Below are positions 1-19,995 of a stretch of 64,000 nt of DNA, piece by piece. Where the stretch lies: assembly GCA_937625935.1 (NCBI GenBank), contig OW569353.1, forward strand, positions 1-64,000. Direction: 5' to 3'. The stretch's first letter is position 1, and each line of letters opens with the position of its first letter. Made by a program: the position numbers and the translations under genes. The notes under the pieces were generated by a model. That model saw only the letters and a list, made by a program, of their open reading frames with translations. It was not told the DNA's origin and ran no database searches. Origin of the DNA: Tetramitus jugosus. Lineage: Eukaryota; Protista; Heterolobosea.

Positions 1-782
1 CCAAACCCAAACCCAAACCCAAACCCAAACCCAAACCCAAACCCAAACCCAAACCCAAACCCAAACCCAAACCCAAACCCAAACCCAAACCCAAACCCAA
101 ACCCAAACCCAAACCCAAACCCAAACCCAAACCCAAACCCAAACCCAAACCCAAACCCAAACCCAAACCCAAACCCAAACCCAAACCCAAACCCAAACCC
201 AAACCCAAACCCAAACCCAAACCCAAACCCAAACCCAAACCCAAACCCAAACCCAAACCCAAACCCAAACCCAAACCCAAACCCAAACCCAAACCCAAAC
301 CCAAACCCAAACCCAAACCCAAACCCAAACCCAAACCCAAACCCAAACCCAAACCCAAACCCAAACCCAAACCCAAACCCAAACCCAAACCCAAACCCAA
401 ACCCAAACCCAAACCCAAACCCAAACCCAAACCCAAACCCAAACCCAAACCCAAACCCAAACCCAAACCCAAACCCAAACCCAAACCCAAACCCAAACCC
501 AAACCCAAACCCAAACCCAAACCCAAACCCAAACCCAAACCCAAACCCAAACCCAAACCCAAACCCAAACCCAAACCCAAACCCAAACCCAAACCCAAAC
601 CCAAACCCAAACCCAAACCCAAACCCAAACCCAAACCCAAACCCAAACCCAAACCCAAACCCAAACCCAAACCCAAACCCAAACCCAAACCCAAACCCAA
701 ACCCAAACCCAAACCCAAACCCAAACCCAAACCCAAACCCAAACCCAAACCCAAACCCAAACCCAAACCCAAACCCAAACCC
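1..782 (+). repeat. Telomere, (CCCAAA)n, about 130 copies; G-strand TTTGGG
   Basis: Perfect hexamer array from base 1, C-rich strand 5' as expected at a left chromosome end. Confidence 0.98.
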
Positions 783-784
783 TA

Positions 785-1288
785 GTGTGCATTTAGGCGG
801 AACCAGCTGGTTCCACTGAAAATGTCATATTATAGGCGGAACCAGATAGTTCCACTGACAAAGTCAAGTTTTAGGCGGAACCAGCTGGTTCCTCTGTAAA
901 GTCGAAAATTTAGGCGGAACCAGATAGTTCCTCTGAAAAAAAGCTCTTTTAGGCGGAACCAGCTGGTTCCGCTTGTTTGTCCAAATTTTAGGCGGAACCA
1001 GATAGTTCCTCTGTAAAAAAGCTTTTCTAGGCCGAAATGCCTGGTTCCGCCTATTTTTTCGACACTCATCAGTCAATAGCTCATAGAGATTTGGGTTTTC
1101 TGAGTTCAAAACCCAACTCCATATCACAGTTTGGGTGATAGTTCAGAATCTATAGTGAGTTGTTTCATACAAAGCTTAAGTTGAACATTCCAGACCATAA
1201 AGAATACAAAAACAACGTTTACAAAGTACGGTTGACTGTATTAAGGCATTCTTGGTTTGCCGATATGTGACAACCCAAACCCAAACCC
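785..1288 (+). mobile_element. Telomere-associated module 1 (array + ~230-bp tail + telomeric seed), truncated by the telomere
   Basis: Near-identical to 2098-2599; ends TATGTGACAACCCAAACCCAAACCC. The duplication is seen; mobility is inferred. Confidence 0.6.
794..1053. repeat. 39-bp palindromic tandem array, copy 1 (7 units)
   Basis: TAGGCGGAACCAG(CTG/ATA)GTTCC starts at 794, 833, 872, 911, 950, 989 and (degenerate) 1028; exact 39-bp period; CAGCTG and CAGATA cores alternate. Confidence 0.97.
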
Positions 1289-3053: not shown

Positions 3054-3789
3054 TCGCCATGACCATATGACCATTGCTGGCCCTCCTCATGACCCTTGCT
3101 AACTCTCGTCTTGACCTTATGACCATTGCTAAGACCTTCAAGTTAGCTCTACTATGTTCCTATGTTCATCCTTTTTGCATGGCGAGGGTACCTGGCCTCG
3201 TTCATTGTTCTTTGTCTCTAATTGCTTCAGCGATGACAGTAACACGTACGGAACAATGAAGGAGGACACTCTACATACGTTCCAAGTAATAATCTCTCTT
3301 CGTGTTGGATATCGCCTTGTTGACAACACTTTCTTTTCTTCGTGCGTCAAAAAAATGAAAAAGCGGCCTGTGTAATCGTGATTACACAAACAGTCATTTA
3401 TTCATCTGAATTTTTTTATGAAAAAAATTCGACAAAGTCCAAGATACGGCTCATTTGTAGGCCTTCATTGTCTTTTTGAATGTGTAGATCACTTTCCAAG
3501 TAGAACCACTGTCGACGCCCTATTGCAGGTCTGAGTATTGTGGGGGGATTACTGGCTTGACGAAAGGTCTGGCAGTTCGTTCCAGATAGTAATTTTCTTG
3601 ACTCAAAGAAGTCTGCTACCTTCACAAGACCCAAAATCTTTGTGATCCGATATTCTTCACACTTGGTGCGTTGTTACCTGCTGTAAAACTTTTAGCGCCT
3701 GCCTGTCAATTGTCAACTTTCAAAAAAAACTTTTTTTGAAAAAAAAACAACTCACATTTTGTTCCACACAAACATCTCCAACAAGGCTC

Positions 3790-5160
3790 ATGATTCCACT
3801 TGCTTCCCTTGGTGAAGATTGGGACAATATCCAAGATTTGAATATTAGATTTGTTGTGCAGAAAGTACTACTTCCTCATCAGTTGGTTAACTCAGAGGCA
3901 ATGAGAGGTTGTATAGGCATTAAGTCAGCTCACGATAATGCAAAATTGTTGAAAACCTTGTGTGATGATGATAATTCTGCATTACGACCAAAACTCAAGG
4001 AACTAATTTCTGAGTTGGGAGACAAAGTTAAGCAAGCTGAAGATGAAGTACATAACAATAACCAACAAAGTATTAACGAGCAAGCGGAACGCTCTAACTA
4101 TGAAAATTCGGACTACAACCTGGACAATTATAATAGTGATGGAGATGACAATAGAGAAGAAGAGCATGATGGAAATTATTCATTGTATAACTCAGATAGA
4201 TCATCTGATGATAGCAATATTGGTGGTGCAGATGGGTATTCGTGTGATGATAATGATCTTGATGGTCCCGACCAATATGATACGATGAACCCAGGCCAGG
4301 AGGAAGCGCATTTTGAGGAGATGGATGAAGTTTTACAAGAAAGAATGGAAGAATATTCTACTCATAACGACATTATAAATCTCGCTGAAGATTTGGAGGA
4401 ACTTCCTGTATATGCAATATACAATCGGGTAAATGCTATTGTTGAGAAACAAAAGAAATTCGATAAGGCAATGCAACTACAAAAGAGTAATGATCGTGAA
4501 GTTCTTCATTTTGTTGAGGATTCTGATTTACTCTGTAAGCTGTTGGATATGAACTTGGAACTAGAGACAGAGGAGAAAAGAAAAAAAACAGAGAAGAAAA
4601 GAAAAGAAACATTGAGGGCACTTTATCTATCAGCTACAGAGACTTGTACAGAACGGCTGACTCAGCAACCTGGTGCAAACATGGAAGATGTTCTATGCTC
4701 TTTACGACCTATTTACAGCCTTGTTGCTAACTTGTCTGTTGCATTTACTCTATACATTTATACTATTACAGAATGTGATAAAAAAACCTCCTTTTGGGAT
4801 GAAAAAATTGTTTACATTGGAATGACCACTGACATGTGGTTCAGACATAAAGGTGGTCATGTTGCTTCATCCAAGCTGCTCGACCCACAATATGCCAATT
4901 ATCATAAGAAGGTCTATTTATGTACCTGTTGTGTTGGTAATGTACCTGCAGAGTGGCTTAAATTCTCAGACGCAGAAGCGTTCGTTCTAATTGGTGAACA
5001 ATTCTTAATTAATTATTATCAACCAGAGTTGAATATTGAAGGTAAGAAGCAACCTGTTCTCAACAAGCGAGCCAAGGAGTTATACTCCAAAGTTTCAGCA
5101 GTTCATCTCAGCAGCGCTGATCGCATCAAAACTGTTGAACCTCCAGCCAGAGGTGCATAA
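3790..5160 (+). CDS. GIY-YIG endonuclease domain protein (acidic/coiled-coil N-terminus, C-terminal nuclease)
   Basis: LYIY...VYIGMTTDMWFRHKGGH...EQFLINYYQPELN gives the YIG, Arg, His, Glu and Asn motifs of GIY-YIG; intact intronless ORF; first ATG at 3790. Confidence 0.8.
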   Translation: MIPLASLGEDWDNIQDLNIRFVVQKVLLPHQLVNSEAMRGCIGIKSAHDNAKLLKTLCDDDNSALRPKLKELISELGDKVKQAEDEVHNNNQQSINEQAERSNYENSDYNLDNYNSDGDDNREEEHDGNYSLYNSDRSSDDSNIGGADGYSCDDNDLDGPDQYDTMNPGQEEAHFEEMDEVLQERMEEYSTHNDIINLAEDLEELPVYAIYNRVNAIVEKQKKFDKAMQLQKSNDREVLHFVEDSDLLCKLLDMNLELETEEKRKKTEKKRKETLRALYLSATETCTERLTQQPGANMEDVLCSLRPIYSLVANLSVAFTLYIYTITECDKKTSFWDEKIVYIGMTTDMWFRHKGGHVASSKLLDPQYANYHKKVYLCTCCVGNVPAEWLKFSDAEAFVLIGEQFLINYYQPELNIEGKKQPVLNKRAKELYSKVSAVHLSSADRIKTVEPPARGA

Positions 5161-5503
5161 TTCCTGAGTCCATTGGTACTTCGGAAAGAGATTCTTAGTA
5201 TAGTTGGTGTTGAGAGTTTTGTGGTGTGGTTTTTTCTGCTCCTCTGAACCCTGACAAGTTCACCTGAGTCGTATAAAAGAGTTCTCTCGGTCGAGGTTTT
5301 TCTTTGTCGCGAATTGCTGCTTCAGAGGATGGATCATTGAATAAATATTGTTAACCGTATGATAGATTGCACTTCATTGACTTTTTACTGTTGGTGATAG
5401 CAACGGAACAATGTACAGACCAAGTACAGTCGCACTGTTTCTGTCGTAATTTTGTGTTTTAGGGGCTGTTTTAAAAGGTGCGACTCACACAACTGTGTCT
5501 CAT

Positions 5504-6271
5504 TCATTTGATCTGGACGTATGCCTTTACCGTCTTTTTGAACGTGTCGAGATCGTAGATCGCTTTCCAAGCATAACCACTCCTGAGCAGTCGGCGCCCT
5601 ACTTCGAGTTGTTCGGGAGTAGGTTTGTTTGGATGTATTTTGAACTCGATGAATAGAGCACCAAACCGTTTGTTCTTCTTCAGAATGACGTAATCAGGGT
5701 AGCCTTTGAGTCTACCATTGCGCCTAGCCTTTTCTGTGCATGCCGCAATACCAATTCCAGCAATGTCAGCATTAACCACAATTCCAGGATAGGCTTTGCA
5801 CATGTGCGCATGAGCGTCGGACTGAAGCTGGTCCTCTTTGCCCATTTTCTTGGGATTGATACCTTTTATCTTCTTCTTTACTGGTTTCGACCCGTACATA
5901 AGTATGTGATTCAAGTCTTTCTCTTTCAGTTCAGACACAACCCTCTTTCTACTAACTGAAAAAGGGGACACAGCATCCTTGCGCATCCGGGTCATTTTCG
6001 CAGGCTTCTGTATGCCATTTTTCGGTTCCCTCTTCTTTGGATCCGGCTTCTTGGTTTCTCTGGTTTTGACTTTCGCGGTAATCTTGGATACCACTTCAGA
6101 CGATTTCCTAACTGCTTTCCTGGATGGAGACTGTGTTTCATTGACTTCTGTCACCATCTTGCGTTTTACCTCTATGATCTTCTCTGGCTTCTTGATACCA
6201 TTCTTAGGTGGTGTTTTGGCCGGTTTGGCTTTTGGTGTGGGCTTCTTCTCTGTTTTGACCGTTGTAATCAT
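5504..6271 (-). CDS. VRR-NUC family PD-(D/E)XK nuclease with Lys-rich N-terminus
   Basis: KEDQLQ...KGYPDYVIL...LFIEFK..NKPTPEQ...L...GY is the stand-alone VRR-NUC pattern. Confidence 0.85.
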   Translation of the reverse strand: MITTVKTEKKPTPKAKPAKTPPKNGIKKPEKIIEVKRKMVTEVNETQSPSRKAVRKSSEVVSKITAKVKTRETKKPDPKKREPKNGIQKPAKMTRMRKDAVSPFSVSRKRVVSELKEKDLNHILMYGSKPVKKKIKGINPKKMGKEDQLQSDAHAHMCKAYPGIVVNADIAGIGIAACTEKARRNGRLKGYPDYVILKKNKRFGALFIEFKIHPNKPTPEQLEVGRRLLRSGYAWKAIYDLDTFKKTVKAYVQIK

Positions 6272-6336
6272 GTTGTGTTTCTATTCCAGCTTCGAAGTGA
6301 ATATGTTGATTAGTAAGTGTTGTGTAACATTTGTGT

Positions 6337-6678
6337 TTATTCTCTGATTATGTGGTTGAGACATTCAGCATACTGGCGAATCTGTATGCATGACCGATCT
6401 AGTTCGGGTCTGAATGATATCAAGCCGTAGCGTGTCCGCTCTCCAGTTGTCTTAATTTCGAAGATACAGACCCATTTCAAAAATATCGCATTGGACTTGA
6501 GTGCCAACGCATACACTTTAACGTGTTGCGTCTCATGGACATGCTGGAGGACTTCAGCCTTCTCTGGTTCACCAGGTACTTTGGATGCGAAGAAGATGTT
6601 TCCATTGGGGTACATAGCCATACGGACTGATGTCTGTGCGAATGCATCAAGGTCCCATTTCCTGTTGCTCTGGTTCAT
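6337..6678 (-). CDS. Hypothetical protein (ORFan)
   Basis: ATG overlaps an upstream stop (ATGA, 6675-6678); co-oriented with neighbours; no recognised motif. Confidence 0.45.
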   Translation of the reverse strand: MNQSNRKWDLDAFAQTSVRMAMYPNGNIFFASKVPGEPEKAEVLQHVHETQHVKVYALALKSNAIFLKWVCIFEIKTTGERTRYGLISFRPELDRSCIQIRQYAECLNHIIRE

Positions 6679-8798
6679 TTGGGTGGTTTTGTTTCTGGGC
6701 TCTGTGAACAGAATTCTTGTTTAAATAATTCCCGGACGTCGGGCTTGAGCATGTTCAGTGTAGATTATCTAGGATGCGCTTGGGCTCATACACAACAGCT
6801 TCTGTTGCATGTGTTAGTTCGTGCGCAATCTGAAACCCTAACAGAGCAAATTGGCTGGTTCTGTCGTACAGCGTGCTGAACATGGGTGTGCGTAGGATGC
6901 CGGGTGGAATGGTGACTGAGTGACTTTCTGGTTGGTACCACGCATTGGTGCTGGTTGACTCATCGTATGTAATGTCAGTAGAAACAGTTCGGCCGTTTAA
7001 CATCAATCCACCATCAGAGTCTAGCCACGACGGCCGGAAACGCATGTACACTCTGTCAGTGATTGCTGTTACAATGTTGAGTCCAAAATTAACGGATGAT
7101 ACATCCATGTTGTTCTCTGCCTCAAGTAACAGTTGGGGACCGTTTTCACCGTATGTATCTGTTGTCAACTTGCCAAGAGAACACTCGCCGACCGACACAC
7201 GAAGGCTGTCGAGTTGGGTCAAGAGTTTGTCACGAGTATGTTTGTTTGTTGAGCACCATAGATCGATTTTCACCTTTGTCATTGATGAGAGATTTTCGCG
7301 TACCTCCCAGAAGAATCATATCTCTGTACGTGTGACGAATCTCGTTGGCGATGTATGTTGCTTGTTTCTGACGTTCTGATGATTCAGCATCCATCTCTAC
7401 GAACGCATTGCAGTATGACAGAGGAAAAGTGTGTTGTACGGTGCGAGCACACATATCAACTAACGATCCAGGTTCTTGTGCAATTCGGGCGGTTGCCTGT
7501 TGTACGAGCTGTGCACTCTGGATGAAAATAGAGTCTGACGTTGTGTGTTTATCTATCACGAGTGGAGAGACACCTCCGTGAGACATCACACTACTGCTTA
7601 TATCTGGTACAGCACGCAAAACATGTTCGTACATACACACCATGAGGTACGACTTCCACGTACTCACTTCCATGTGTGCGAGGGCTCGGTCCAAATTGAG
7701 CATATGTTGATTGGAAGCCACGAAAACATTATCAATGTTCGTGGATGTCAACTTTGGGCGGACTCCTGCCTCTGGAAACATCAAGCTTTCTGGAGCAGAG
7801 AGTTGGTTTCTTCCATTTCCGTCCACATAGTTCACCTTGTCAAGACTGTGCAGAAAATGGCGCACTTCATAGGCGTCACAGAGCATGTTAATGATGTCGA
7901 CCATGTGGTTTTGATTTTCAATGCCTATATGGAAGGCATATGATGCAATAAAGGTGGATATATCGCTGTGAGATGGTCTTCCAGGTCTAATGACCAGAGT
8001 GGTGTCAGACGTCTCGTTCCTGTACTCAAAAGAGTGCATCTCTACTCCTATGCCTCTGTACGCCATGTGAAACAATGTGTCAACAACACCCTGTTTATCC
8101 TTCACCAAATTGATCATTCTCTCTATTCCTGTCACAAAGTCGAGCAGAGGTTTCCAACGAATGACTTCTGCGAGATGTAGCCGCCACTTTTTGTGAAATT
8201 GGGACGCACTGCGTAGTGTTGTGATTTGTGTGCCTGGTGATGCTGATAGAGCTTTGTAGTGCGTCACACATGACGTGAGCAGCTTGTGCATGTTATTGTG
8301 AGTATTGTACTTGGCGGTATTTTCTGCGATTGGCTTAGAGCTACTGAACTTGGTGATACGACCGCTCTCCAGAAACGAGTGGAGGCGCGAGATATCATGT
8401 GCATTCTCGCTCATTGTTGTCACTATGAAGCGATTGAATGGTTGCTTCCATCCGCTGCACGCATGCTCGTAAAAGCTGCTGCAAGGATTGATTTTCTTGT
8501 CCAAGAGGGTTTCACTGGCTGTGCTTGGGTAGAAGAACCGATGAGTGCTCTCCGGGTGGTTGTCGTCTTGTTCTTGTTCGACTTCCCTGATCAGCCCATC
8601 AATTAGAGGCATGCGTTGTGTGGTTAGCTTGTTCCATTTCACAGTTTGAGAAGCACGTGGGAGATCTTTGTGTCGTAGTACAAGATCCCAGACAAAGAAT
8701 AGGACTGATAGAAGCAAAAAAGTCCCACCAGACGCAAGCAGAGCGAACGCCACGATGGTACTTGTTCTTGCACAAGCATAAAAACGCACAGAGACCAT
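6675..8798 (-). pseudogene. M13 (neprilysin/ECE) zinc metallopeptidase, frameshifted
   Basis: N-terminal TM anchor; INPCSSFYEHACSGW; NAWYQPESHSVTIPPGILRTPMF; IAHELTH. Split over ORFs 7230-8798 and 6755-7282; downstream ENxAD motif not seen. Confidence 0.85.
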
Positions 8799-9079
8799 GA
8801 TTCTCGGTTAGTAACTATCTAGTTGTGTTTCCTATTTACAAAGTGGTTCTTGAATGTTAAACGCAACGCAATATGGATTCCCTATTTAACGTCGTCCTCT
8901 GGTTCCCCGGTGTTTCCGTAAAAGTTGTCATAGTTGATGTCCGTGTTCTTGCGTCGTCTTGGTGACTCTTCCTCCGGAGCAGAAAATACCATATTTGTTA
9001 TAATAGAGATCCTGTAGTTCCAGATTATTAGGACCTCGTCATATTACTCCTAGTTTGTTGATATTCAACAACAAACAAA

Positions 9080-10960
9080 ATGATAGGTCGCTTGTTCAAG
9101 TACACAGGAGATATGCTGCTCGTGCGCCGCAATCCTCTTAAATTCCCTGAGGTGACGGTGGTTGGAACGTCTTCTTTGACGATCTGCGCTTTGTCTTCGA
9201 TCTTATGGATATGCTTCCGCTGCATGAGTTGTATCAACTCAAGCAGATCTCTCGTTGGTTCAACCGCTGTGTGTTCATTTATCTACACTCTGAGCGCATG
9301 AATCGTCGCAGAGCACTGCACGAACACATCGGGGCAATTGACGTAATGCTGATGCCTGGGCGTGATAAACATACCTCAGTTGGAGCTGATGCATTCGTAC
9401 TCAGAGCCCTCATTGGAACTCAGACAACCCATTTAACACTTGAAGAAGGATGTTGCAGTAGTCAGGTTCAGAGAGATTTGTGTGTACCACGTGATATGTG
9501 TGTCTTTGTGAATGGGAAGCAGAATTCGTGCATTACAGATTCTGACTTGTTCCCTGATGTCAGCCAAACATACAAGTATTTTGTTCTCATGAAGGCCGGT
9601 GGTTGGAGAGAACGCTCTCGAAAATCAAAAACACGTTACTTTTACTCTGGTGACCAGATGGTGAACACGGAGACCAAACGATTCGTGGTGCTTGCTGATG
9701 AGAGAGCACGTATTGCCAATCTCATCACACTCAACAGAGGCACTCACAAGACCACTGGCCTGTGTTACGTGGGCATTTTTGGCCAGATTATTGAACCACC
9801 GAACGTCAGGGACGGTACCGTCCTTGTGGCACAGGATCAAAATACGCCACTGATGTTCCTCATCCGGACACACGGTACCGTCAAAAAACTGAGCCTGGAA
9901 AAGTGTGTTGCTGACTTGTCTGTTCGATCCTTCATCGGCTATCGTATGCGTGAAGTGAGAGGGTCTTCGCTTGAGACCATCCAACTCACTCAATTTGGAC
10001 ACGGACTTCGTGAACTTGATCTCTCCAACACAACTCTCAATAACACTGACCGTTCCATTCACATCTGGAGGAAGTATGCCTGTCCGGTGTGAATGGAATC
10101 GACGATATGCATGTGCGCATGATATTTAAGATGCTGGTTCTTCTGGAGAAGCTCGATGTTAGCCGCTGCTCTGGCGTTACAGCAAAATTGTTCCTCCGGC
10201 GGAGGATGAACACCTACGAACTTGTACAGGATCCATTGGCAAGCTCAGATACAGTTAGATCCGTTTTTGAATGCAACTACAGACGAGCTCTGGCTTACCA
10301 AAGTCCATGGGCCAAGGGAGAGTGTTCAGATGCCACGAATCTGCGTCGCTTCTTTGCTAACAAATCTCTCTCATCTGGGTGGCTAGAAGGTAGAGGATTC
10401 TTCCAGAAGTTAGTTTGGGTTCCCCTCATCTCACCAGCCTATACCTTTCCGGATCTCTGTGTAGATCGCTGTTTCCAATTCTGAATTCATGCAACAAACT
10501 GAACATTGTACACTTGGACAATCCAACTTACTCGTGGGTTTTGAACAATGCACATGTGAAGACAGTATGTATGTATGCTCCACACCTCGAGGTGTTGAAC
10601 CTGGCTGGTTGTACTGGATTGAATTTGAGTGCTGTGTACTACATTTCCCAATACGCGAAACATCTGAGACATCTAGATCTGAGCAACAATCCAAACATGA
10701 CATCGTCAGTCATTTCCATTCTGATGACTGGAGAAGAACACAGGCCATACAAACTCAAAGAGATGTGTGCAAGAGCGAACGCTATCGCTCATATATCTGA
10801 CAACCAAACAGAAGAAAAAGGTGCCATCCCGGAGAATCCACTGCTCAGACTAAGACACCTCAATCTGATTCTCTTGACAGGATGTTCTGAAGTCAACAAG
10901 AACGAACTCGGTATTGTTGCCAGTTTCGACATGTACAAGCACATCTCGGTTGTGGTTTAA
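9080..10960 (+). pseudogene. F-box / cysteine-containing LRR protein, several frameshifts
   Basis: F-box-like DLMDMLPLHELYQLKQISRWF; LRRs LRELDLSN, LEKLDVSRCSGVT, LEVLNLAGCTGL and LRHLDLSNN lie in three successive frames. Confidence 0.75.
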
Positions 10961-10961
10961 T

Positions 10962-11213
10962 TTATTTGGATGGTGTAAAACAGAACACAATGAAGATGAT
11001 TAACATGGTGCAGATCGAGCTCGTATAGAAACACCAGATGTGACGCTCCCCTAAGTACGCAACGGTTAGCTCTCTGAGACCGGCGTACGAGTCATGTTGC
11101 ATGCTTGAGACAGTAATGTCCATCTGCTCGTGTAACTTGTAGTCGGATTCTTCTGGATGTTGCATTTTGTGGGTTTGTTGTGGTACTTGAACAATAATGC
11201 CTGTTTCGCTCAA
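10962..11213 (-). CDS. Small hypothetical protein with C-terminal TM helix
   Basis: Fills the gap between neighbours; hydrophobic C-terminus; start codon uncertain. Confidence 0.4.
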   Translation of the reverse strand: MSETGIIVQVPQQTHKMQHPEESDYKLHEQMDITVSSMQHDSYAGLRELTVAYLGERHIWCFYTSSICTMLIIFIVFCFTPSK

Positions 11214-11262
11214 TAAAGATCACTCTCTAACGCTCTACGTTTGAACGAGAAACACAAGCAAC

Positions 11263-11889
11263 ATGACAGAAGAAGCCCGTAGCTTATATGATGCATATTG
11301 CCTCCGACTTTCACGAGATCCTGTATGTGTCGGTCGTCTAGTCAGTCTTTGGTTCCAATACCCTTTATTCGTGACATGCGAACCGTGTGTAACGAGACCG
11401 GAGCTTACAAGGGAGATGTCCAAGTTTCGGCTTTGTGGCACGGACGTGCTCTCTATATCTGACGGTAGAAGTGATATATTTGCACACTTCCTCGAATACG
11501 TGCTGTTCGGAACAGTCGACCTGAGTGTAGACAGTGACGGAGTATATCTTGACGAAGATCGAGTTCTCTTTGTTCCTATCACTGAGATGCAGCTGTATGA
11601 TTCGCCAGAGAGCAATGACTTAAGTGAAGTAATAGCAATCTACAAGCAGTGGATTGAGCGAAATTCGGAGTTCTTCGAAAACCGAGCTCACGTCATTTAC
11701 CAGTGTTCGTATCGAGAGTACAAGGGAAACAGGTGCGTCAATGGCAGACCGCGAATGTTACCCGTGGAGTTAGTGTGGGCTGTGTGTGTCTCTTTCCTTG
11801 TGTTCATTCAACGAGAAGTGCGCATAGCGTGGGGATTCTACTGGTTACAATCATCTAACCTATCGTTGTTCCAGAGAAAAAGAGTTTAG
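11263..11889 (+). CDS. Hypothetical protein (ORFan)
   Basis: 208-aa ATG ORF, globular composition, no recognised family. Confidence 0.55.
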   Translation: MTEEARSLYDAYCLRLSRDPVCVGRLVSLWFQYPLFVTCEPCVTRPELTREMSKFRLCGTDVLSISDGRSDIFAHFLEYVLFGTVDLSVDSDGVYLDEDRVLFVPITEMQLYDSPESNDLSEVIAIYKQWIERNSEFFENRAHVIYQCSYREYKGNRCVNGRPRMLPVELVWAVCVSFLVFIQREVRIAWGFYWLQSSNLSLFQRKRV

Positions 11890-11891
11890 TG

Positions 11892-12287
11892 ATGCACATT
11901 GTGGACAAGGTGATGGAAGAGAAGAGGATGATGCAGGTGAATGCGTTGTCCTCTGACGAGTACCGGGACTTACAAATTCTTCAGGACGAATGTATCACTG
12001 AAGTGTACAACGGAATCGTTTCCTCGCTGACCACGGCGTTCATGCGCCGCTCTTCTGTTCGGGACTTGGATCCCAACTACGCCACAAGATTGGCGATCAT
12101 GCGCACGGTGACGTGTAAACTAGAAGACTTGGCTATGGAACACACGAACTCGATTTCGCTGACAAAACCTCAGGCAAATCACGTGTCTCAAGAGTGGACA
12201 AGGGTACAAAGAACAGTAATGCAGCAAAAAGACAGGGCTATCTCCTTTATGGATGATAAGTACGGCATCTTCAGCCGGTTTTGGTGA
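11892..12287 (+). CDS. Hypothetical helical protein (ORFan)
   Basis: ATG 2 bp after the previous stop (TAG TG ATG). Confidence 0.55.
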   Translation: MHIVDKVMEEKRMMQVNALSSDEYRDLQILQDECITEVYNGIVSSLTTAFMRRSSVRDLDPNYATRLAIMRTVTCKLEDLAMEHTNSISLTKPQANHVSQEWTRVQRTVMQQKDRAISFMDDKYGIFSRFW

Positions 12288-12388
12288 TTTAAACTGAAGC
12301 CATTCTCAAAAGTTCCGCTGTCATTTCATTAAGATCGTCCAAGAACTTGCACATGGTACGATTGTTATTCAAATCTTTACTGGTGGGC

Positions 12389-12802
12389 TCACCAGTAAGG
12401 GCAATAAGTGACACATCGTTCTTTTACGCCGTGTTGAGTAATCCATACCAATCGACACTCAAGTTCTCTTTCCTTCATGGTCTGTATTTCGACGAGAGAA
12501 GAGAATGAATCATCAATGTAGTACAGACCTTCGAGGTATTGAATCACCAACAGGATTGAGACCTGGTGTTGAAGATTGGCAAGCAAGTTTTGGGTGAAGA
12601 ATTGACTCCTGAGTTTGAAAACAAAAGTGGCACTCTGCTTGGTGAGCAAATCTTGATACAAATTCCTTGATTTTCTGAAATTCTCCTGTTGAGAACTCAC
12701 CCGAGGCCCAACAGAACTTGAGATGTAAAATATTCCCTTGCAACAATTGCGCCAAAAATTCCATTTTTCAGATTTTCCTGAGTTTGTTCCTGTCAGCAAC
12801 AA
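12389..12802 (-). pseudogene. Probable degraded ORF of unknown family
   Basis: Overlapping ORF fragments in two frames filling the gap in the compact cluster. Confidence 0.3.
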
Positions 12803-12835
12803 AAGTTCTAAAAAAACAACATAAAAGATCTCAGG

Positions 12836-13518
12836 ATGTCCATTCTTTCCAAAAAATGGTTTTGGTACCCTTTGGCCATAATCTTACTTGCAGTAATTTT
12901 CAAAGAGCAGTTGGAAACATGCATGCGGGTATGCCCCCAGAACAACTACGAGTACCAAGCAACAGCCACAAAGGAACAAGAAAGAGAAGTGTTTGTCAAA
13001 TCTCAACAGCTGCAAGAAGAAACAGAGGAAGAACGAACTCATCGAGAGTACAAAGATATTGCCCGCCAATTGCGAAAGAAGAGGCGAGAGAGGCAGCGGT
13101 CCGAAGAAGCTCGGATTTTACCCAGAAGGACAATGTTTGCCTGTGTGGGCGACATCGTGCGAAGTGTCACGCATTTGCTGCCTTGCTGTCAGACAACCGC
13201 TTGTCAAGGCAAGACGTGACACTGAACTTATCGAGCGCTCAGCTGTGATTCACTCACAACGAAACCAGCAAACAAGTCAACGCTTTGCGTGATTTGGAAA
13301 CAAAGAACCGTCAAATCAGAATATTCTTCACCCATAAAGTAAAGTGTTTTAACAATGAACTGGCCAGACGTCTACGTGCCGAATGCACCCAAAAACATTT
13401 CCAACAACCCATGTTTGATTTCGAGTACCACAAGAAGATGACGGGGATCGCGAGCCCAGTCCAAAGTTTTGAATCGCCAACAGAGATTGATTCCCTGGTT
13501 TGGGGAGTGAAGGATTGA
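12836..13518 (+). pseudogene. Membrane-anchored coiled-coil protein, frameshifted
   Basis: N-terminal TM WFWYPLAIILLAVIF, charged helix, continuation in ORFs 12993-13292 and 13285-13518. Confidence 0.45.
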
Positions 13519-14699
13519 TTCCAAGCTCTGAAGCACAAGATAGTGATTTCAAGGTGTTGAAAATAAGAAAGTTGGCGAAGCCTGGCGCTTGGAGAAAGAG
13601 CTGAAAACGCCAAGCCAGGCTTTGCAATTTTCAGAGTTGGTGATCGAGTGACAATCGAGTGTCAAAGATTGTGCTTTGCAACCAACAAGGCGTCACACCA
13701 AGGATGGATTGTGCTTTGCAATCTCGGGTCTACAACAACGAGCAGGATTGATTTTGCAATCAAGGATGGATTTAACAATGGTTTCGAGGCGAAGCCAAGC
13801 ACTTGGGACAGAAACGAGGGACACTCTGATGATCAACCACTCGAAGGTACAACCACCGGTTTGTCACAAGACAATCGCAATCCTGTCAGGTTTCGAAGCA
13901 CTGAACAATTCAACCCTGTAAGGTTTTGTGATCACGTGAGGTTTGGATCATCAACAAGGTTTGGATCATTTATTTAGGAGGTGTTGTTCTGATAAAGAAA
14001 TCAATTGTTATTGAACTTCCTATCAAAGAGGTTGGTGTAACCCGCAGGTGTAAGGATCGGTAGATACCTGATAGACAGGCTGCGGAACTGTTGTAGATTT
14101 ATTTGGCGGAGAAATCTCGGCCACACAACGATTTTTTTGCGATACAAACAAAACATGAAGATTAAAGCAGTATCGTCACCAACCGCCGCCTCCTCAGGTC
14201 CTTACTAGTAATGATATTGTTCTCCATTTGTCCTATGTGTTGGTTGAAGAAACAATAATAGATGTATACACAAGTTTTTATTCGTTTGTTTTGTGGCTTT
14301 GTTTGTTGGGCTTTGTTGATGAGTGTGTGAAAGCACCTTCTTATACCACACGTTCATGTTTCTCTCATTTGACCTCATTTTGTTCACACGCTCACTTTTC
14401 TCATATCTGACCACTTTTTGGCCACACGTTTCTCTTATGTAACTTTTCAAGTTTTCCCTACAATTTTTCATACGAACTGTGTGAATAGGGTGTGTGATAT
14501 AGAAGATTCATGACAAAAACTCACATACCGCATTCACTTGCTTTCGATGATAGAGTGGCAGTGTCACAGTCATCACAAGATTAAGGGTTGGATTCTGATA
14601 TAACAAGCAGAAAGAAAGTGAGTGTCAATCAACAACATTTCGATGAATAAAGACATATCCAATGATTTTTGTTTGTTGTTCCTTTTAGTTTTGTTGAAG

Positions 14700-15016: not shown

Positions 15017-15739
15017 TCAATTCAGAGTTGGCCAAACGTATGAAAATTTTATTGAGGCAAGAGTTGTTCTCTCTTCCTGGCGATTCATTGGCTTGCGATG
15101 ACCATGGAATGACCAAACCATCAAGAGGAGCGACAACCCTAACCAAGTAAGTGAACATGGGATGGCAGCAAAGCGAATTAGCTTGAGTATCAAAGGCAGA
15201 GTATTCGTGACTGGCAGACCAAACACTGACATAAATGCAAACACAAAAATCACCAGTCATCCAGAGCAGTACCAACAATCAGCCACAAGAAGAAGATGAT
15301 CATTCGAACCACAGAGTTGCTCAAGCCAGCAGATGAAGGAAACCATATGCAGTAGACTACCCAGAATGGTTTCTCAACAACAAACACAAGCAGAGATGCG
15401 AAGGCAGTAGCCATCAAAGACCTCGACACCGCTTCACTTGCTGTTTTTACAGCATTTGATAAGAATTGTAGGTTTAACGTCGGCGGAGTCGATGATTTTT
15501 GCAGAGTAGTCATCAAATCCAGCACTCTTCTGTTGAGAAGAAGAAGATGTAGATGACTTCAAATTGACACTGGCGCGATTCGGGTTCACATCCTCTGTAA
15601 AATCAAAGAATGAAGTCGCATTGGACGATGTTCTTGCTCTAGTGACTTCAATCTTTGCTGGATTGTGAATCAATTTCTGAATGGGTTGTGGCTCTGGCAA
15701 ATCAGAATCAAAGTTCAGGGTTGTTCTGGATGATGGCAA
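15017..15739 (-). pseudogene. Possible degraded multi-pass membrane protein
   Basis: Chain of short hydrophobic ORFs in different frames. Confidence 0.3.
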
Positions 15740-16193
15740 TGTTCAAGTACGTTGCAAAAAGTGTCCATCCCAGATAGGGCACCATCAGCTTAACTGAATT
15801 CACCGAATTCTTTGCGAACGAGAACATGGTCAAGATTATGAAGGAATTAAGAGCGAGAACTACAGCCAGGGCCTTCTTCGGGTTCTTTTGCTTGAAGAAC
15901 ACAGCTGACCAATAGAAGTTCAGGAAAAGTTGTGAAATGAAGAAAATCGTACCTGATGCAATGTTCTTCTTTGCCTTTTTCATCTGGCGGATCCACATGG
16001 CCAATGCTACACCCATCAACGAGTAAAGAATTGTCCATACAACCGGAAAAATCCAGCCAGGCGGGAACCATTTGTTCTTCTTGAGGACTTGAAACCATTC
16101 CTGTGATTCCTCTCTGGAGATGTAGAGCAAGGAGTACGCTGTGGATAACAACAACGGAGCTGCAGCTATGGCAATTTGATGTAGAGCGATCAT
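15708..16193 (-). CDS. tspO: TspO/MBR translocator protein
   Basis: WFQVLKKNKWFPPGWIFPVVWTILYSLMGVA, QLFLNFYWSAVFF and LMVPYLGWTLFATYLN are TspO motifs; likely start MIALHQ. Confidence 0.95.
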   Translation of the reverse strand: MIALHQIAIAAAPLLLSTAYSLLYISREESQEWFQVLKKNKWFPPGWIFPVVWTILYSLMGVALAMWIRQMKKAKKNIASGTIFFISQLFLNFYWSAVFFKQKNPKKALAVVLALNSFIILTMFSFAKNSVNSVKLMVPYLGWTLFATYLNIAIIQNNPEL

Positions 16194-16329
16194 GTTTGTT
16201 CTTTGCATCCGATTGATCGGAGATCTGGGACTAAATGATGATGCCTCCACCCGCAGCTGTTTTTAGAATTTTGTTGTAGACTGAGGAGAATTAACATGAC
16301 ATATGAGAATGAACAAACTGTGGATGAGA

Positions 16330-16801: not shown

Positions 16802-17036
16802 GTCAACTGCTTCACTTTCAGTGGTACCTGCATCAAGAATGAGCCGATTAAGTTGGTTCTGGGCTTGAATGATCTCATCCTCAGTTTTAGTAGCTTTACA
16901 ACATTGTAGTACGAGGTGATAACTGGTTGTTCATGGTTATTTGGGGCATGTGTTTTGGTTTGTGTTGTGTGGCTATGCCAGTGTCATCTAACTTCAAAAC
17001 GCCCGTTATGTGATTTACGGGTAAATACAGGCCACA

Positions 17037-18124
17037 TGGAGCAGGCGAATCGAAGCAGCTCATCTTTTGCACCACTGATCATGTTTCATGACGCGAGTCA
17101 ACCACTCATCCAATTGCTGGGCAATGACTGGCAACAGTTGTCACAAAACTTGGATACCATTCGAAAGCTGACCATCACACCGGACGAGCAAGTGGCACTC
17201 AATAGTCAGCTGACCCAACTGGATCAAGTCAAGTCAGGGCAGCTCTTGGATTGTGAGCAAAAGAGTCAAAGCAGCTTGGCATCAGAAACGACCATTGCTC
17301 AATTGACAGACACTGTGCAGCAACTGTCTGAATCGACACGACAGCGGTCTGAGGCTGGACAACAATTGCACCAGGTTCGCCAACACTGAAAATTCAACTC
17401 TTGCTTTGCGCATCGAAGAGTTGGAGAGTCAGCTGTCCAAGTCAATGCCGAAGCTCAGCAAGTCAGGCTTGATGCAAGTCAACACTCGAGGCAACAACAA
17501 GAAACGATCGTGGTGCTTCAAGCCAGAATCGGTATCGCTGAACAGCAGTTGAGTCATAGCCAAGAAGCGCTTGCACAGGCACAGCGAGAAGCAGACCAAT
17601 GGAGGCTGCAATTGAATGAGGTCAAAAGCGAATTGACACAAGAGCGATCCAAGCAGGAGCGACATCAGACAGATCAGGAGCTCACCAGGCAATCGATGGA
17701 AGCATCCCTGAGCAACCAATGGACTGAGCACCAGAAAGAATTGTCTCAGTTGAGAGAACAGCAACAGCTTGACTTGGAGGCACTGCGCCAAGAGTTGACG
17801 GTTGTGCATCAACAACAAATCTCGAGTGAGTATAGTGCCACGAGGCAATGTCAATCCTTGTTGGAGCAAGCACAGGCAGACAAACAGTTGATGGAGCAAC
17901 GACTGAGCAGTGAACAAGCCAAGTTACTTGATGCCACCGATCTCATCACCCAACTCAAAAATAACATCTTGACTGGGACACAAGACACGGCAAGCCTCCA
18001 AATTCGACTCCAACTGGTAAGTAAACTTCACTTCAAGCAAGAGCAAACAACAAGTTTGGAGTATCAGCTTTCCTTGTTGAAACAGAGTGAGAAAAGGCCA
18101 GGGCAGAGAACACTCGCTCATTGA
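17037..18124 (+). pseudogene. Gln/Leu-rich coiled-coil protein, frameshifted
   Basis: Two consecutive heptad-rich ORFs (16916-17389 and 17510-18124) in different frames. Confidence 0.5.
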
Positions 18125-19869
18125 CTCCACTCGATCAGCTTGCCTTGCAGGTAGATCGCTTGATCCAAAGCCTGATGATCGAAAAAGAGTTTGTTGCAAG
18201 GTAAATACCCTGGAGTTGGTAAGAGTCGCTCCTGGACGAGGAAGAAGAAGATGCAATCCGTAGCTTGGCAAATGATAGAGAATAAGAAGATTTGTTGGCT
18301 GATGTTCCGTTTCCCGACATTAAGGAAGCAACTAATTTGGCATAAGCATCATTCTCAATTTAAGTAGCAAAGGATCAAGCATCGTATGTGTAGAGATGCA
18401 AACCCAACACCACGAATAAAACGAGCCAAACAACAAAGACAACCAACAACAATTGACGGAATTTCGTTGCTCGATTAATTCACACCCAGAATCAAAGAGT
18501 TGTCGGGAGTTCATGAAGGAGAGAAACCACGTCAAATGGAGTTGAGTAACAATTTGGTGGAATTAACAGTTCAATACTTATCTATGCTCAAAGATCGAAA
18601 TTGAAGTACTCGGCCTACAGAATAATGGATATGTTCGTGAATTAGATTCAACGACAGAGAGTCTATGTTTGTCGTCGCAAAGTCAAACGGAGGAGCAGTA
18701 GTCACTGTCCATCCGAATTGCTTGAAGTGTAATTGTGTTCTCTATCAACACAGCAGATTTTGCTCTTGTATGTGTGCTCTTTCTAAATTGAGGAAGGACT
18801 ACAGTCAAATACGAACCATGGTCAAAAAGAACAAATCAACGTTAAAAGCGCTACTCAGTGCTGGATGTCAGCGGATTCTGTGTCTCCAGTATATGATCAT
18901 ACCTTAGCCAATTGTGGAGACGCTGAGGTTTTGATAGCAAAAGTCAAGTCTGCAAAGAAGTGTATTACAAATTGTCTCGGATTATTGCTACCTATTCCTT
19001 GGAAACCTAACTTGCCACAAGTATTCCAATACAAACCGATGATGATTTCCAGGGCACAAAGAAGCCACCACGATATTGATTCGACATCAGAAGAAAGCTT
19101 GGAATGATGCAAAGCTGTATGTAGATTTCTTACAACATTCATTGCCAGATGAAATCGTTGAACCCAAAAGGAGAAAAGACTATAAGATTCTAGTTGTTCA
19201 TGACAACGTGTAGTTCCACTTTGCCACACAACTCAGTGATCTATGCAAGAAGGATTATGGTACCTCATTGTTTACCGAATGCTACGGCTCTATACCAACC
19301 ATTCGATGAAACTCTACCAAGTCTGTCTAATCATCCAAGTGTGCTTTTGTATACTCCAGAGAGATTCAATGTTCCAGTAATCCTACCTAGTTTCAACTTT
19401 GAACTAGGTATATTAGTGAGCGCTGTTGCCTGCTTGATCTCTTTGTTCCTTGATGATGGCTTCTTTACCTTCTATGTTCACCGCAGCACGAACTCCATTT
19501 CCACACTGATACCAGAGAACGCACTCCACTTTTGTCCCTGGTTCCAAGAAACCAATACCCGGTGCGAACCGCAGATGAAATTGTTGCGGACCCAAGCATG
19601 GGATATTGGCAGTCGCCGCGAACGAATTGATGTCTTTCCAAGCGATGATAGTGCAGTTACTGATTGTTGTGCTGATTCTCGGGCGTATGAACACACTCTG
19701 GTTGATCGAAATTGGTAAGAAAATCAGCCCAATGCAAAAAATACAGCATAGGATTCCAATGTTGGCACAGGTCCTTATCATCTGCATCATGACGCTCCTG
19801 TGTCCGATACTTTTGTGTGTGTTGATGGTCAGAATTTCTCAACGTCCATCCCCTCTGGATTTCTAGTGC

Positions 19870-19995
19870 GTTGTTGTTGCCAGCTAAATGTGAAAAAGCT
19901 TGATCTGTGATTTGAATACGACCACTGATATTGAGTGAGTGAATACCAGTCAAGTGTCGAAATGCATTGTCTGTGATCTGAGTGCAACTCATATC
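19870..19995 (-). pseudogene. LRR fragment
   Basis: CTQITDNAFRHLTGIHSLNISGRIQITDQAFSHLAG, about 1.5 repeats, no complete gene. Confidence 0.65.

What the first reader, a model, noticed from the sequence alone, without database searches (positions are those of the whole stretch)
5385..13518. Decaying virus-like gene cluster (probable endogenous large-DNA-virus fragment)
Seen: about ten intronless ORFs with minimal spacing, ATGA stop/start overlaps at 5504-5507 and 6675-6678, TAG-TG-ATG at 11887-11894 and converging stops at 10960/10962. Most are ORFans, and they lack the poly-N/Q/S tracts typical of the host genes beyond 20 kb. Known: stand-alone VRR-NUC, M13 peptidases and F-box/LRR proteins occur in large DNA viruses. 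No capsid, polB or packaging ATPase was recognised, so the viral origin is inference.
Basis: partly seen in the sequence, partly recalled or inferred. Interest (0 to 1): 0.7.

Follow-up and report, generated by a model that had tools for sequence, protein, structure and literature searches.

The report
Fresh, decaying viral fragment near telomere
An 8-kb piece of foreign DNA, likely from an unclassified large DNA virus, sits next to the telomere of a single-celled eukaryote and is already broken by deletions, while a near-identical copy that is unbroken at one site (and probably at two more) occurs in a freshwater metagenome.

Summary
The block is real, foreign and decaying, but it holds about 7-8 genes, not ten. 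It lies about 4.7 kb inside a (CCCAAA)n telomere and differs from host genes in codon use (10 of 10 pieces versus 0 of 19). Its VRR-NUC nuclease, M13 peptidase and LRR protein each have one relative cluster among billions of proteins (49-65% identity, intact). Two of these relatives lie on contigs of the same length (18,938 nt), probably the same contig. Against them, M13 has a frameshift plus a ~126-codon deletion that removes a zinc ligand, and the LRR gene has three frameshifts. Freshwater and groundwater runs hold 95-100% identical pieces; one carries the six residues missing at an LRR break. The TAG-TG-ATG junction is probably another frameshift. No capsid, polB, ATPase, integrase or terminal repeats were found, and no close relative in IMG/VR or GTDB. 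Viral origin (about 70%) is therefore inferred and the lineage is unknown. This is a new member of a known kind, the Acanthamoeba-type subtelomeric viral insertion. It is notable for its likely recency and possibly extant donor.

The parts
1..784 (.). Telomere, (CCCAAA)n; context for the block
5504..6271 (-). Stand-alone VRR-NUC-like PD-(D/E)xK nuclease with Lys-rich N-terminal tail, 255 aa, frame intact
   Evidence: PHROG 824 E 2.9e-15, phrog_93 endonuclease and phrog_5702 Holliday junction resolvase E 3e-7; Pfam VRR_NUC below cut-off, E 0.075; sole homologue P0001, 63% over the domain
6337..6678 (-). ORFan, 113 aa; its ATG overlaps the native M13 stop
   Evidence: block-like codons; no relative in IMG/VR
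6675..8798 (-). M13 (neprilysin/ECE-like) membrane zinc peptidase pseudogene: frameshift near 7265 and deletion at about 6764 of homologue residues 663-788, including the ENxAD zinc-ligand motif; HELTH retained
   Evidence: Pfam PF01431 and PF05649; tblastn with the intact 809-aa P0002; motif positions
8882..8992 (-). Tentative 36-aa ORF with A-rich leader
   Evidence: no family hit; one synonymous difference in X6; weak
9113..10960 (+). LRR protein pseudogene (F-box-like start seen by eye only), four collinear pieces, frameshifts near 9160, 10060 and 10424; an upstream in-frame ATG lies at 9080
   Evidence: sole homologue P0003, 635 aa, 46-49% over the three long pieces; weak Pfam LRR hits; low-confidence model matches LRR folds
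10962..11165 (-). ORFan, 67 aa, hydrophobic C-terminus
11263..12287 (+). ORFan, probably one gene split by a frameshift into 208-aa and 131-aa ORFs
   Evidence: no homologue; X5 contig is 7 letters longer across the junction region; frame offset fits
12390..12770 (.). Host repeat fragment interrupting the block (diverged copies elsewhere in the organism's runs); identity as a retroelement end is recalled by eye and was not confirmed
   Evidence: partial contigs and loose ends at 12440-12723; host-like composition at 12501-13000; no Pfam hit
12836..13518 (+). ORFan with N-terminal hydrophobic segment and predicted coiled coil (127 aa) plus a downstream 89-codon open stretch; probably part of the block and possibly broken
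   Evidence: block-like codons and 3-mers; identical X5 contig at 12771-12938

Best explanation
The block at about 5.5-13.5 kb is foreign DNA, likely from an unclassified large DNA virus of this protist, that was probably captured recently near the chromosome end and is being inactivated by deletions. Shown: subtelomeric position, foreign composition, lesions in two genes, intact environmental relatives, and a near-identical environmental copy that is unbroken at one LRR break. Inferred: the piece was pasted in passively by break repair during an infection, since it has no integrase or terminal repeats and could not move or make particles. In the donor, the nuclease would cut branched DNA, the M13 enzyme would be a membrane-anchored zinc peptidase, and the LRR protein would be a substrate adaptor for host ubiquitin ligases. 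In the host the M13 copy has lost a zinc ligand and is predicted to be dead.
For: Composition: leave-one-out codon score favours the block model in 10 of 10 block pieces and 0 of 19 host ORFs; CpG odds 0.85 against 0.47-0.75 in 11 host windows. The 3-mer score is zero or above in all 14 windows of 5501-12500 and at 13001-13500, and negative in all 18 out-of-sample flank windows. Homologues: one cluster each for VRR-NUC, M13 and LRR (phmmer over 1.84 billion proteins). All are intact single ORFs from metagenomes. P0001 and P0004 both lie on an 18,938-nt contig, which suggests synteny. Lesions. They are not window-only errors: an 8,445-nt contig in X1 and X2 has 0 differences (these may be the source sample), and a 235-nt piece of X4, another sample, crosses LRR break 2 with no gap. 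Integration: an X4 contig (12772-14263) bridges the right edge into flanking DNA. Recency: four X5 pieces total 825 nt with 6 substitutions. One X5 piece ends in 21 letters that, read by eye in frame, give ICSFMK, which equals P0003 residues 326-331, the stretch missing at break 2. Two other X5 pieces have net +2 and +7 letters, matching the frame offsets at the M13 break and the 11263/11892 junction. 7 of 14 listed coding differences are synonymous against 22% expected (P=0.02). The mix of a phage-type stand-alone nuclease with eukaryote-type LRR and ECE-like proteins, without introns and with host-type A/C-rich leaders, fits a eukaryotic large DNA virus. LRR and F-box proteins are common in giant viruses (a virus-only library). 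The pattern matches Acanthamoeba insertions (PMC12210455).
Against: No hallmark gene in any ORF scanned. No close relative in IMG/VR: 7 of 8 scans confirmed nothing, and one gave 12 weak nuclease matches at 26-52% with no other block gene nearby. The identity of the 18,938-nt contig is unknown and the shared contig is inferred from length only. The LRR homologue sits on a different, 3,143-nt contig. Environmental contigs are short and of depth 2.3-4.1, and they could come from another host strain. Five of the seven nonsynonymous differences come from one contig in the Lys-rich tail. The subtelomeric TspO gene outside the block also scores block-like in codons. The host is itself gene-dense and its leaders look the same as the block's. 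M13 peptidases in giant viruses are recalled only; searches listed no paper showing it.
Confidence: 0.7

Rival explanations
1. The block is foreign and decaying but the donor is not a virus: a eukaryotic plasmid or large DNA transposon, a compact-genomed parasite or prey, or an intracellular bacterium with eukaryote-like effectors.
For: No viral hallmark and no classified viral relative. LRR and M13 proteins occur widely in cells; M13 hits in plasmids and PDB exist but only at 21-27% in the eight plasmid rows shown.
Against: No relative in 185,579 prokaryotic genomes in two scans. Leaders are eukaryote-type with no evident Shine-Dalgarno (by eye). Most genes are ORFans, unusual for a bacterium. 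No transposase, integrase or terminal repeats.
Confidence: 0.15
2. The genes are old, lineage-specific host genes in a labile subtelomere; the 60%-identical relatives are orthologues from a related protist and the environmental copies are other host strains.
For: Host-type leaders; the host is intron-poor and dense; neighbouring subtelomeric host-like genes are also broken (17036-18124, 19200-19992).
Against: Sharp composition edges; no low-complexity runs; no NCBI or UniRef protist hit and a single hit; stop/start overlap and 1-nt convergence; a stand-alone nuclease whose best profiles are phage families.
Confidence: 0.11
3. The block is an assembly artefact: contaminant or episomal DNA joined to a chromosome end, with sequencing-error frameshifts.
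For: No single record bridges the left edge (contigs break at a repeat at 5181-5294); X1 and X2 may be the source sample.
Against: 0 differences over 8,445 nt in two runs; X4 crosses one break unchanged and bridges the right edge; a ~380-nt deletion and a ~22-nt deletion are not typical read errors.
Confidence: 0.04

Closest known systems
Subtelomeric giant-virus insertions of Acanthamoeba Neff and C3 (PMC12210455; passages and section 6 read)
   Same: Clustered multi-gene chunk near canonical and degenerate telomeric repeats, pseudogenised, no mobility genes or terminal repeats, composition shift, interrupted by a host repeat.
   Different: There the ORFs have best hits to known viruses (for example Medusavirus); here none do. 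Methylation and silencing were shown there and are untested here. Here a 95-100% identical environmental copy exists.
Giant endogenous viral elements (Chlamydomonas and Euglena GEVEs; search listing and abstract starts only)
   Same: Integrated virus-like DNA in a protist genome with erosion.
   Different: Those are typically far larger and carry hallmark genes (recalled); this is 8 kb with none, so it could not reactivate.
Endogenous polinton-like viruses, e.g. OmPLV of Oxyrrhis (PMC12721341; passages read)
   Same: Carry a VRR-NUC domain and show frameshift fragmentation.
   Different: OmPLV has TIRs, MCP, A32 ATPase, pPolB and a BRO-N fusion; none is found here, and an 809-aa M13 plus a 635-aa LRR protein are not listed in the passages read.
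Neprilysin / ECE-1 (peptidase M13)
   Same: N-terminal membrane anchor (by eye), HExxH and, in the intact relative, ENxAD.
   Different: Very divergent (best PDB match E 1.5e-12, C-terminal domain only); the window copy lacks the third zinc ligand.

Membership tests
Nucleocytoviricota endogenous element | Hallmark genes (double jelly-roll capsid, A32 ATPase, polB, VLTF3, D5 primase) | tested here: not met
   None among ORFs of 3.8-23 kb scanned in Pfam, nor among the 3.8-14.5 kb ORFs scanned in PHROGs, Pfam and NCBIfam; the rest of the genome is not held.
Nucleocytoviricota endogenous element | Best hits or GVOG profiles assign genes to a giant-virus lineage | not testable with these tools
   No GVOG or ViralRecall library here; IMG/VR scans gave no close relative; the fold hits come from a low-confidence model (pLDDT 35) in a virus-only library.
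Mirusviricota integrant | HK97 capsid, portal, terminase, triplex, maturation protease | tested here: inconclusive
   No such hit in Pfam or PHROGs, but no mirusvirus-specific profiles are available and the ORFan model was unusable (pLDDT 33).
Polinton / polinton-like virus | Terminal inverted repeats, pPolB or helicase, integrase or recombinase, capsid | tested here: not met
   No terminal repeats; no such genes.
Acanthamoeba-type decayed subtelomeric viral insertion | Subtelomeric cluster of intronless foreign genes with composition shift | tested here: met
Acanthamoeba-type decayed subtelomeric viral insertion | Pseudogenisation; no mobility genes or terminal repeats | tested here: met
Acanthamoeba-type decayed subtelomeric viral insertion | Homology to recognised viral proteins | tested here: inconclusive
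   Only the nuclease matches viral (phage) profiles; the close relatives are unclassified metagenomic proteins.
Acanthamoeba-type decayed subtelomeric viral insertion | Silent, methylated, strain- or allele-specific | not testable with these tools
   Only contigs were available; no run is on record as RNA.
VRR-NUC nuclease (PF08774) | Profile match above cut-off | tested here: inconclusive
   Pfam 13.5 bits against a cut-off of 23.8; PHROG nuclease families E 3e-7; GxPD...EFK motif intact by eye.
Peptidase M13 | PF01431 domain with HExxH | tested here: met
   49.8 bits against a cut-off of 24.5; HELTH present.
Peptidase M13 | Third zinc ligand (ENxAD) | tested here: not met
   Deleted in the window copy; present in P0002 at residue 708.
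F-box/LRR protein | F-box domain | tested here: not met
   No Pfam F-box hit for the window piece or, at E up to 1, for P0003; resemblance by eye only.
F-box/LRR protein | Leucine-rich repeats | tested here: inconclusive
   Sub-cut-off Pfam LRR hits; alternating strand and helix pattern in the model and LRR fold matches.

The most novel reading that the evidence does not exclude
The donor is a still-circulating freshwater and groundwater large DNA virus of a lineage absent from IMG/VR. This genome names its host and records the first stage of endogenisation, in which deletions have already broken most long genes while substitutions are still near 1%.
Probability: 0.4. Interest if true: 0.65.

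Novelty: new member of a known kind. Interest (0 to 1): 0.48.

Why it matters
Decayed viral inserts in protist subtelomeres are known, so the kind is not new. This one has no classified relative, yet near-identical DNA occurs in two environmental studies and an intact sister (49-65% identity) exists in metagenome assemblies. If the donor is a virus, the block is a ready probe to assemble an unknown virus lineage and tie it to a sequenced host. It would also give a rare before-and-after pair for measuring how fast deletions disable newly captured DNA.

Tried and rejected
Whole genome not held, so no search for other pieces or hallmark genes elsewhere. ESM Atlas gave no answer. The metagenome contig scan with P0001 found only one spurious locus, so the 18,938-nt contig was not read. 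IMG/VR: 8 scans, no close relative. GTDB: 2 scans, none. Phage records: no match for P0001. Exact look-up: 0 of 6 window proteins in the collection. ORF 11263: no homologue and an unusable model. Expression: no RNA holder listed. X4 shows GT..AG-type joints outside the block and only short low-depth pieces across 5.4-12.7 kb, with long pieces at 3775-5184 and 12772-14263; contig depth cannot rank genes, so silence is not claimed. X5 shows no long piece in the flanks; lack of cover was not used as evidence. Lower X1 depth over 3.2-14.8 kb (22-26 against 36-42 further in) might mean one allele only, but depth is no copy number here. Programmed frameshifting or RNA editing: considered and not favoured, because environmental DNA carries extra letters at or near three breaks. 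Introns as the cause of the breaks: rejected, since sequence is missing rather than added. The Mimivirus early promoter motif (recalled) is absent from 0.8-20 kb. A zf-RVT reading of 12513-12764 was not confirmed. One search was an uninformative comparison. Four look-ups of earlier findings returned nothing. Papers with nothing bearing on this: PMC10827195 (0 term hits), PMC12768974, PMC11702301, PMC1847700 and 10.1101/2025.04.19.649669 (passages). No supplements were read; genome-wide surveys of viral regions may list this locus there.
Full report
Setting. The window begins with about 780 nt of (CCCAAA)n telomere, then tandem and duplicated subtelomeric repeats with short telomere seeds at about 1270, 1717, 2581, 3035 and 14871. 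Beyond 20 kb lie ordinary genes of an intron-poor microbial eukaryote. No whole genome is held.

Observation. The ORFs and junctions are present as described. Genes cover 95% of 5504-12287 against 86% for host ORF spans, with a median gap of 65 nt against about 275 nt. There are no amino-acid runs of four or more in 2,243 residues, against 27 in 11,409 host residues. Composition sets the block apart. GC is 45-46.5% per kb in 6-12 kb against 40-42% in eleven 7-kb host windows, and CpG odds are 0.85 against 0.47-0.75. A leave-one-out codon score favours the block model in 10 of 10 block pieces and 0 of 19 host ORFs. Of four further ORFs, 12836, 13249 and the outside TspO gene scored block-like and ORF 3790 scored host-like. 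A cross-trained 3-mer score is zero or above from 5501 to 12500, negative at 12501-13000, positive at 13001-13500, and negative in all 18 flank windows not used in training.

Gene content. Each of three genes has exactly one relative cluster. The nuclease matches P0001 at 63% over the domain. The M13 matches P0002/P0004, 809 aa, at 59-65%. The LRR protein matches P0003, 635 aa, at 49%, the only hit among 1.84 billion representatives. All come from metagenome assemblies. P0001 and P0004 are each recorded on an 18,938-nt contig; I infer the same contig and hence synteny, but could not fetch it. The first two searches use a word index and a length range, so distant relatives can be missed. Of the other ORFs, 11263 had no homologue, 6337 had no relative in IMG/VR, and the rest were scanned only against family libraries, without a significant hit.

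Decay. Against P0002, the M13 gene is in three collinear pieces: residues 1-494, 495-662 after a frameshift near 7265, and 789-809 after a deletion at about 6764. The deletion removes the ENxAD zinc-ligand motif. The native stop still overlaps the next ATG at 6675-6678. Against P0003, the LRR gene is in four pieces with frameshifts near 9160, 10060 and 10424. An 8,445-nt contig in X1 and in X2 is identical to 5200-13644; these runs may be the source sample. A piece of X4, another sample of the same study, crosses the second LRR break unchanged, and another X4 contig bridges the right edge. The count of ten ORFs thus falls to about 7-8 genes, two certainly and up to four probably broken.

A near-identical environmental copy. 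A freshwater run (X5) and a groundwater run (X6), from two other studies, hold short pieces at 95-100% identity. X5 had 6 records laid; 4 fit over 164-317 nt and 2 were short partial matches that I set aside. X6 had 5 records laid, all in the block. The X5 piece at 9889-10064 continues with 21 letters absent from the window. Read by eye in the frame of the preceding piece they give ICSFMK, identical to P0003 residues 326-331. That copy is therefore unbroken where the window has lost about 22 nt. The X5 piece across the M13 frameshift has 166 letters over 164 bases, and the piece across the 11263/11892 junction has 324 over 317. Both differences match the frame offsets, though the gap positions were not printed. 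The second suggests that TAG-TG-ATG is a break within one gene, not tight packing. Of 15 listed substitutions, 14 fall in coding frames and 7 are synonymous against 22% expected (P=0.02); five of the seven nonsynonymous ones are in one contig in the Lys-rich tail of the nuclease. These contigs have depth 2.3-4.1, so single differences may be errors, but the six-residue match is not plausibly one. Whether this DNA is a free virus or another host strain is not settled.

What it likely is. Shown: foreign, subtelomeric, broken, with intact relatives. Inferred: a large eukaryotic DNA virus as donor. A phage-type stand-alone nuclease lies beside eukaryote-type LRR and membrane M13 proteins, intronless, overlapping, mostly ORFan, with host-style A/C-rich leaders. 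No prokaryotic relative was found. Giant viruses carry many LRR and F-box proteins, but that library is virus-only and the model was weak, so it shows precedent and not origin. With no integrase or terminal repeats, passive capture by break repair at a labile chromosome end is the likeliest route. The piece could not make particles. I put the viral reading at 0.7, another foreign donor at 0.15, old host genes at 0.11 and artefact at 0.04.

Comparison with known systems. It works like the subtelomeric viral insertions of Acanthamoeba, which are clustered, near canonical and degenerate telomere repeats, pseudogenised, without mobility functions and colonised by host elements (PMC12210455; passages and section 6 read). 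It fails the hallmark-gene tests for Nucleocytoviricota and for polinton-like viruses (OmPLV, PMC12721341; passages), and mirusvirus membership could not be properly tested. That M13 peptidases occur in giant viruses is recalled; three paper searches listed nothing showing it. I did not search for this locus in print by organism, and unread supplements of genome-wide surveys may list it.

Verdict. A new member of a known kind, interest 0.48. The added value is the possible link between a sequenced host and an extant, unclassified virus, and a case of deletion-driven decay at about 1% sequence divergence.

Noticed in passing
window 3790-5160 (+): Intact 456-aa ORF with a GIY-YIG-like C-terminal motif (by eye) and a phrog_16890 match (E 7.5e-8). 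Its codons are host-like, so it is not part of the block; an X4 contig (3775-5184) covers it closely. Possibly from a mobile element.
   Followed up: partly
window ~1270, 1717, 2581, 3035, 14871: Five short telomere seeds, each preceded by a shared 20-25 nt context (D4/D5). They could mark healed ends or ends of a telomere-targeting element. The GIY-YIG-like ORF and the virus-like block lie between two of them.
   Followed up: no
window 791-1051 and 2104-2362: 39-nt tandem repeat with a palindromic core next to the telomere, duplicated at 1,311 nt spacing.
   Followed up: no
window 15708-16208 (-): Intronless TspO/MBR gene (Pfam E 9e-37) with block-like codon bias, overlapping a broken-looking AhpC/TSA ORF; possibly another acquired gene.
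   Followed up: partly
window 17036-18124 and 19200-19992: Broken coiled-coil gene and fragments of a multi-copy LRR-like repeat; many variant contigs lie here.
   Followed up: no
window 12772-14452: An X4 contig runs from just upstream of ORF 12836 to 14263, with a GT..AG joint to 14452; if X4 is RNA, a block-derived ORF may be transcribed into host flank.
   Followed up: partly
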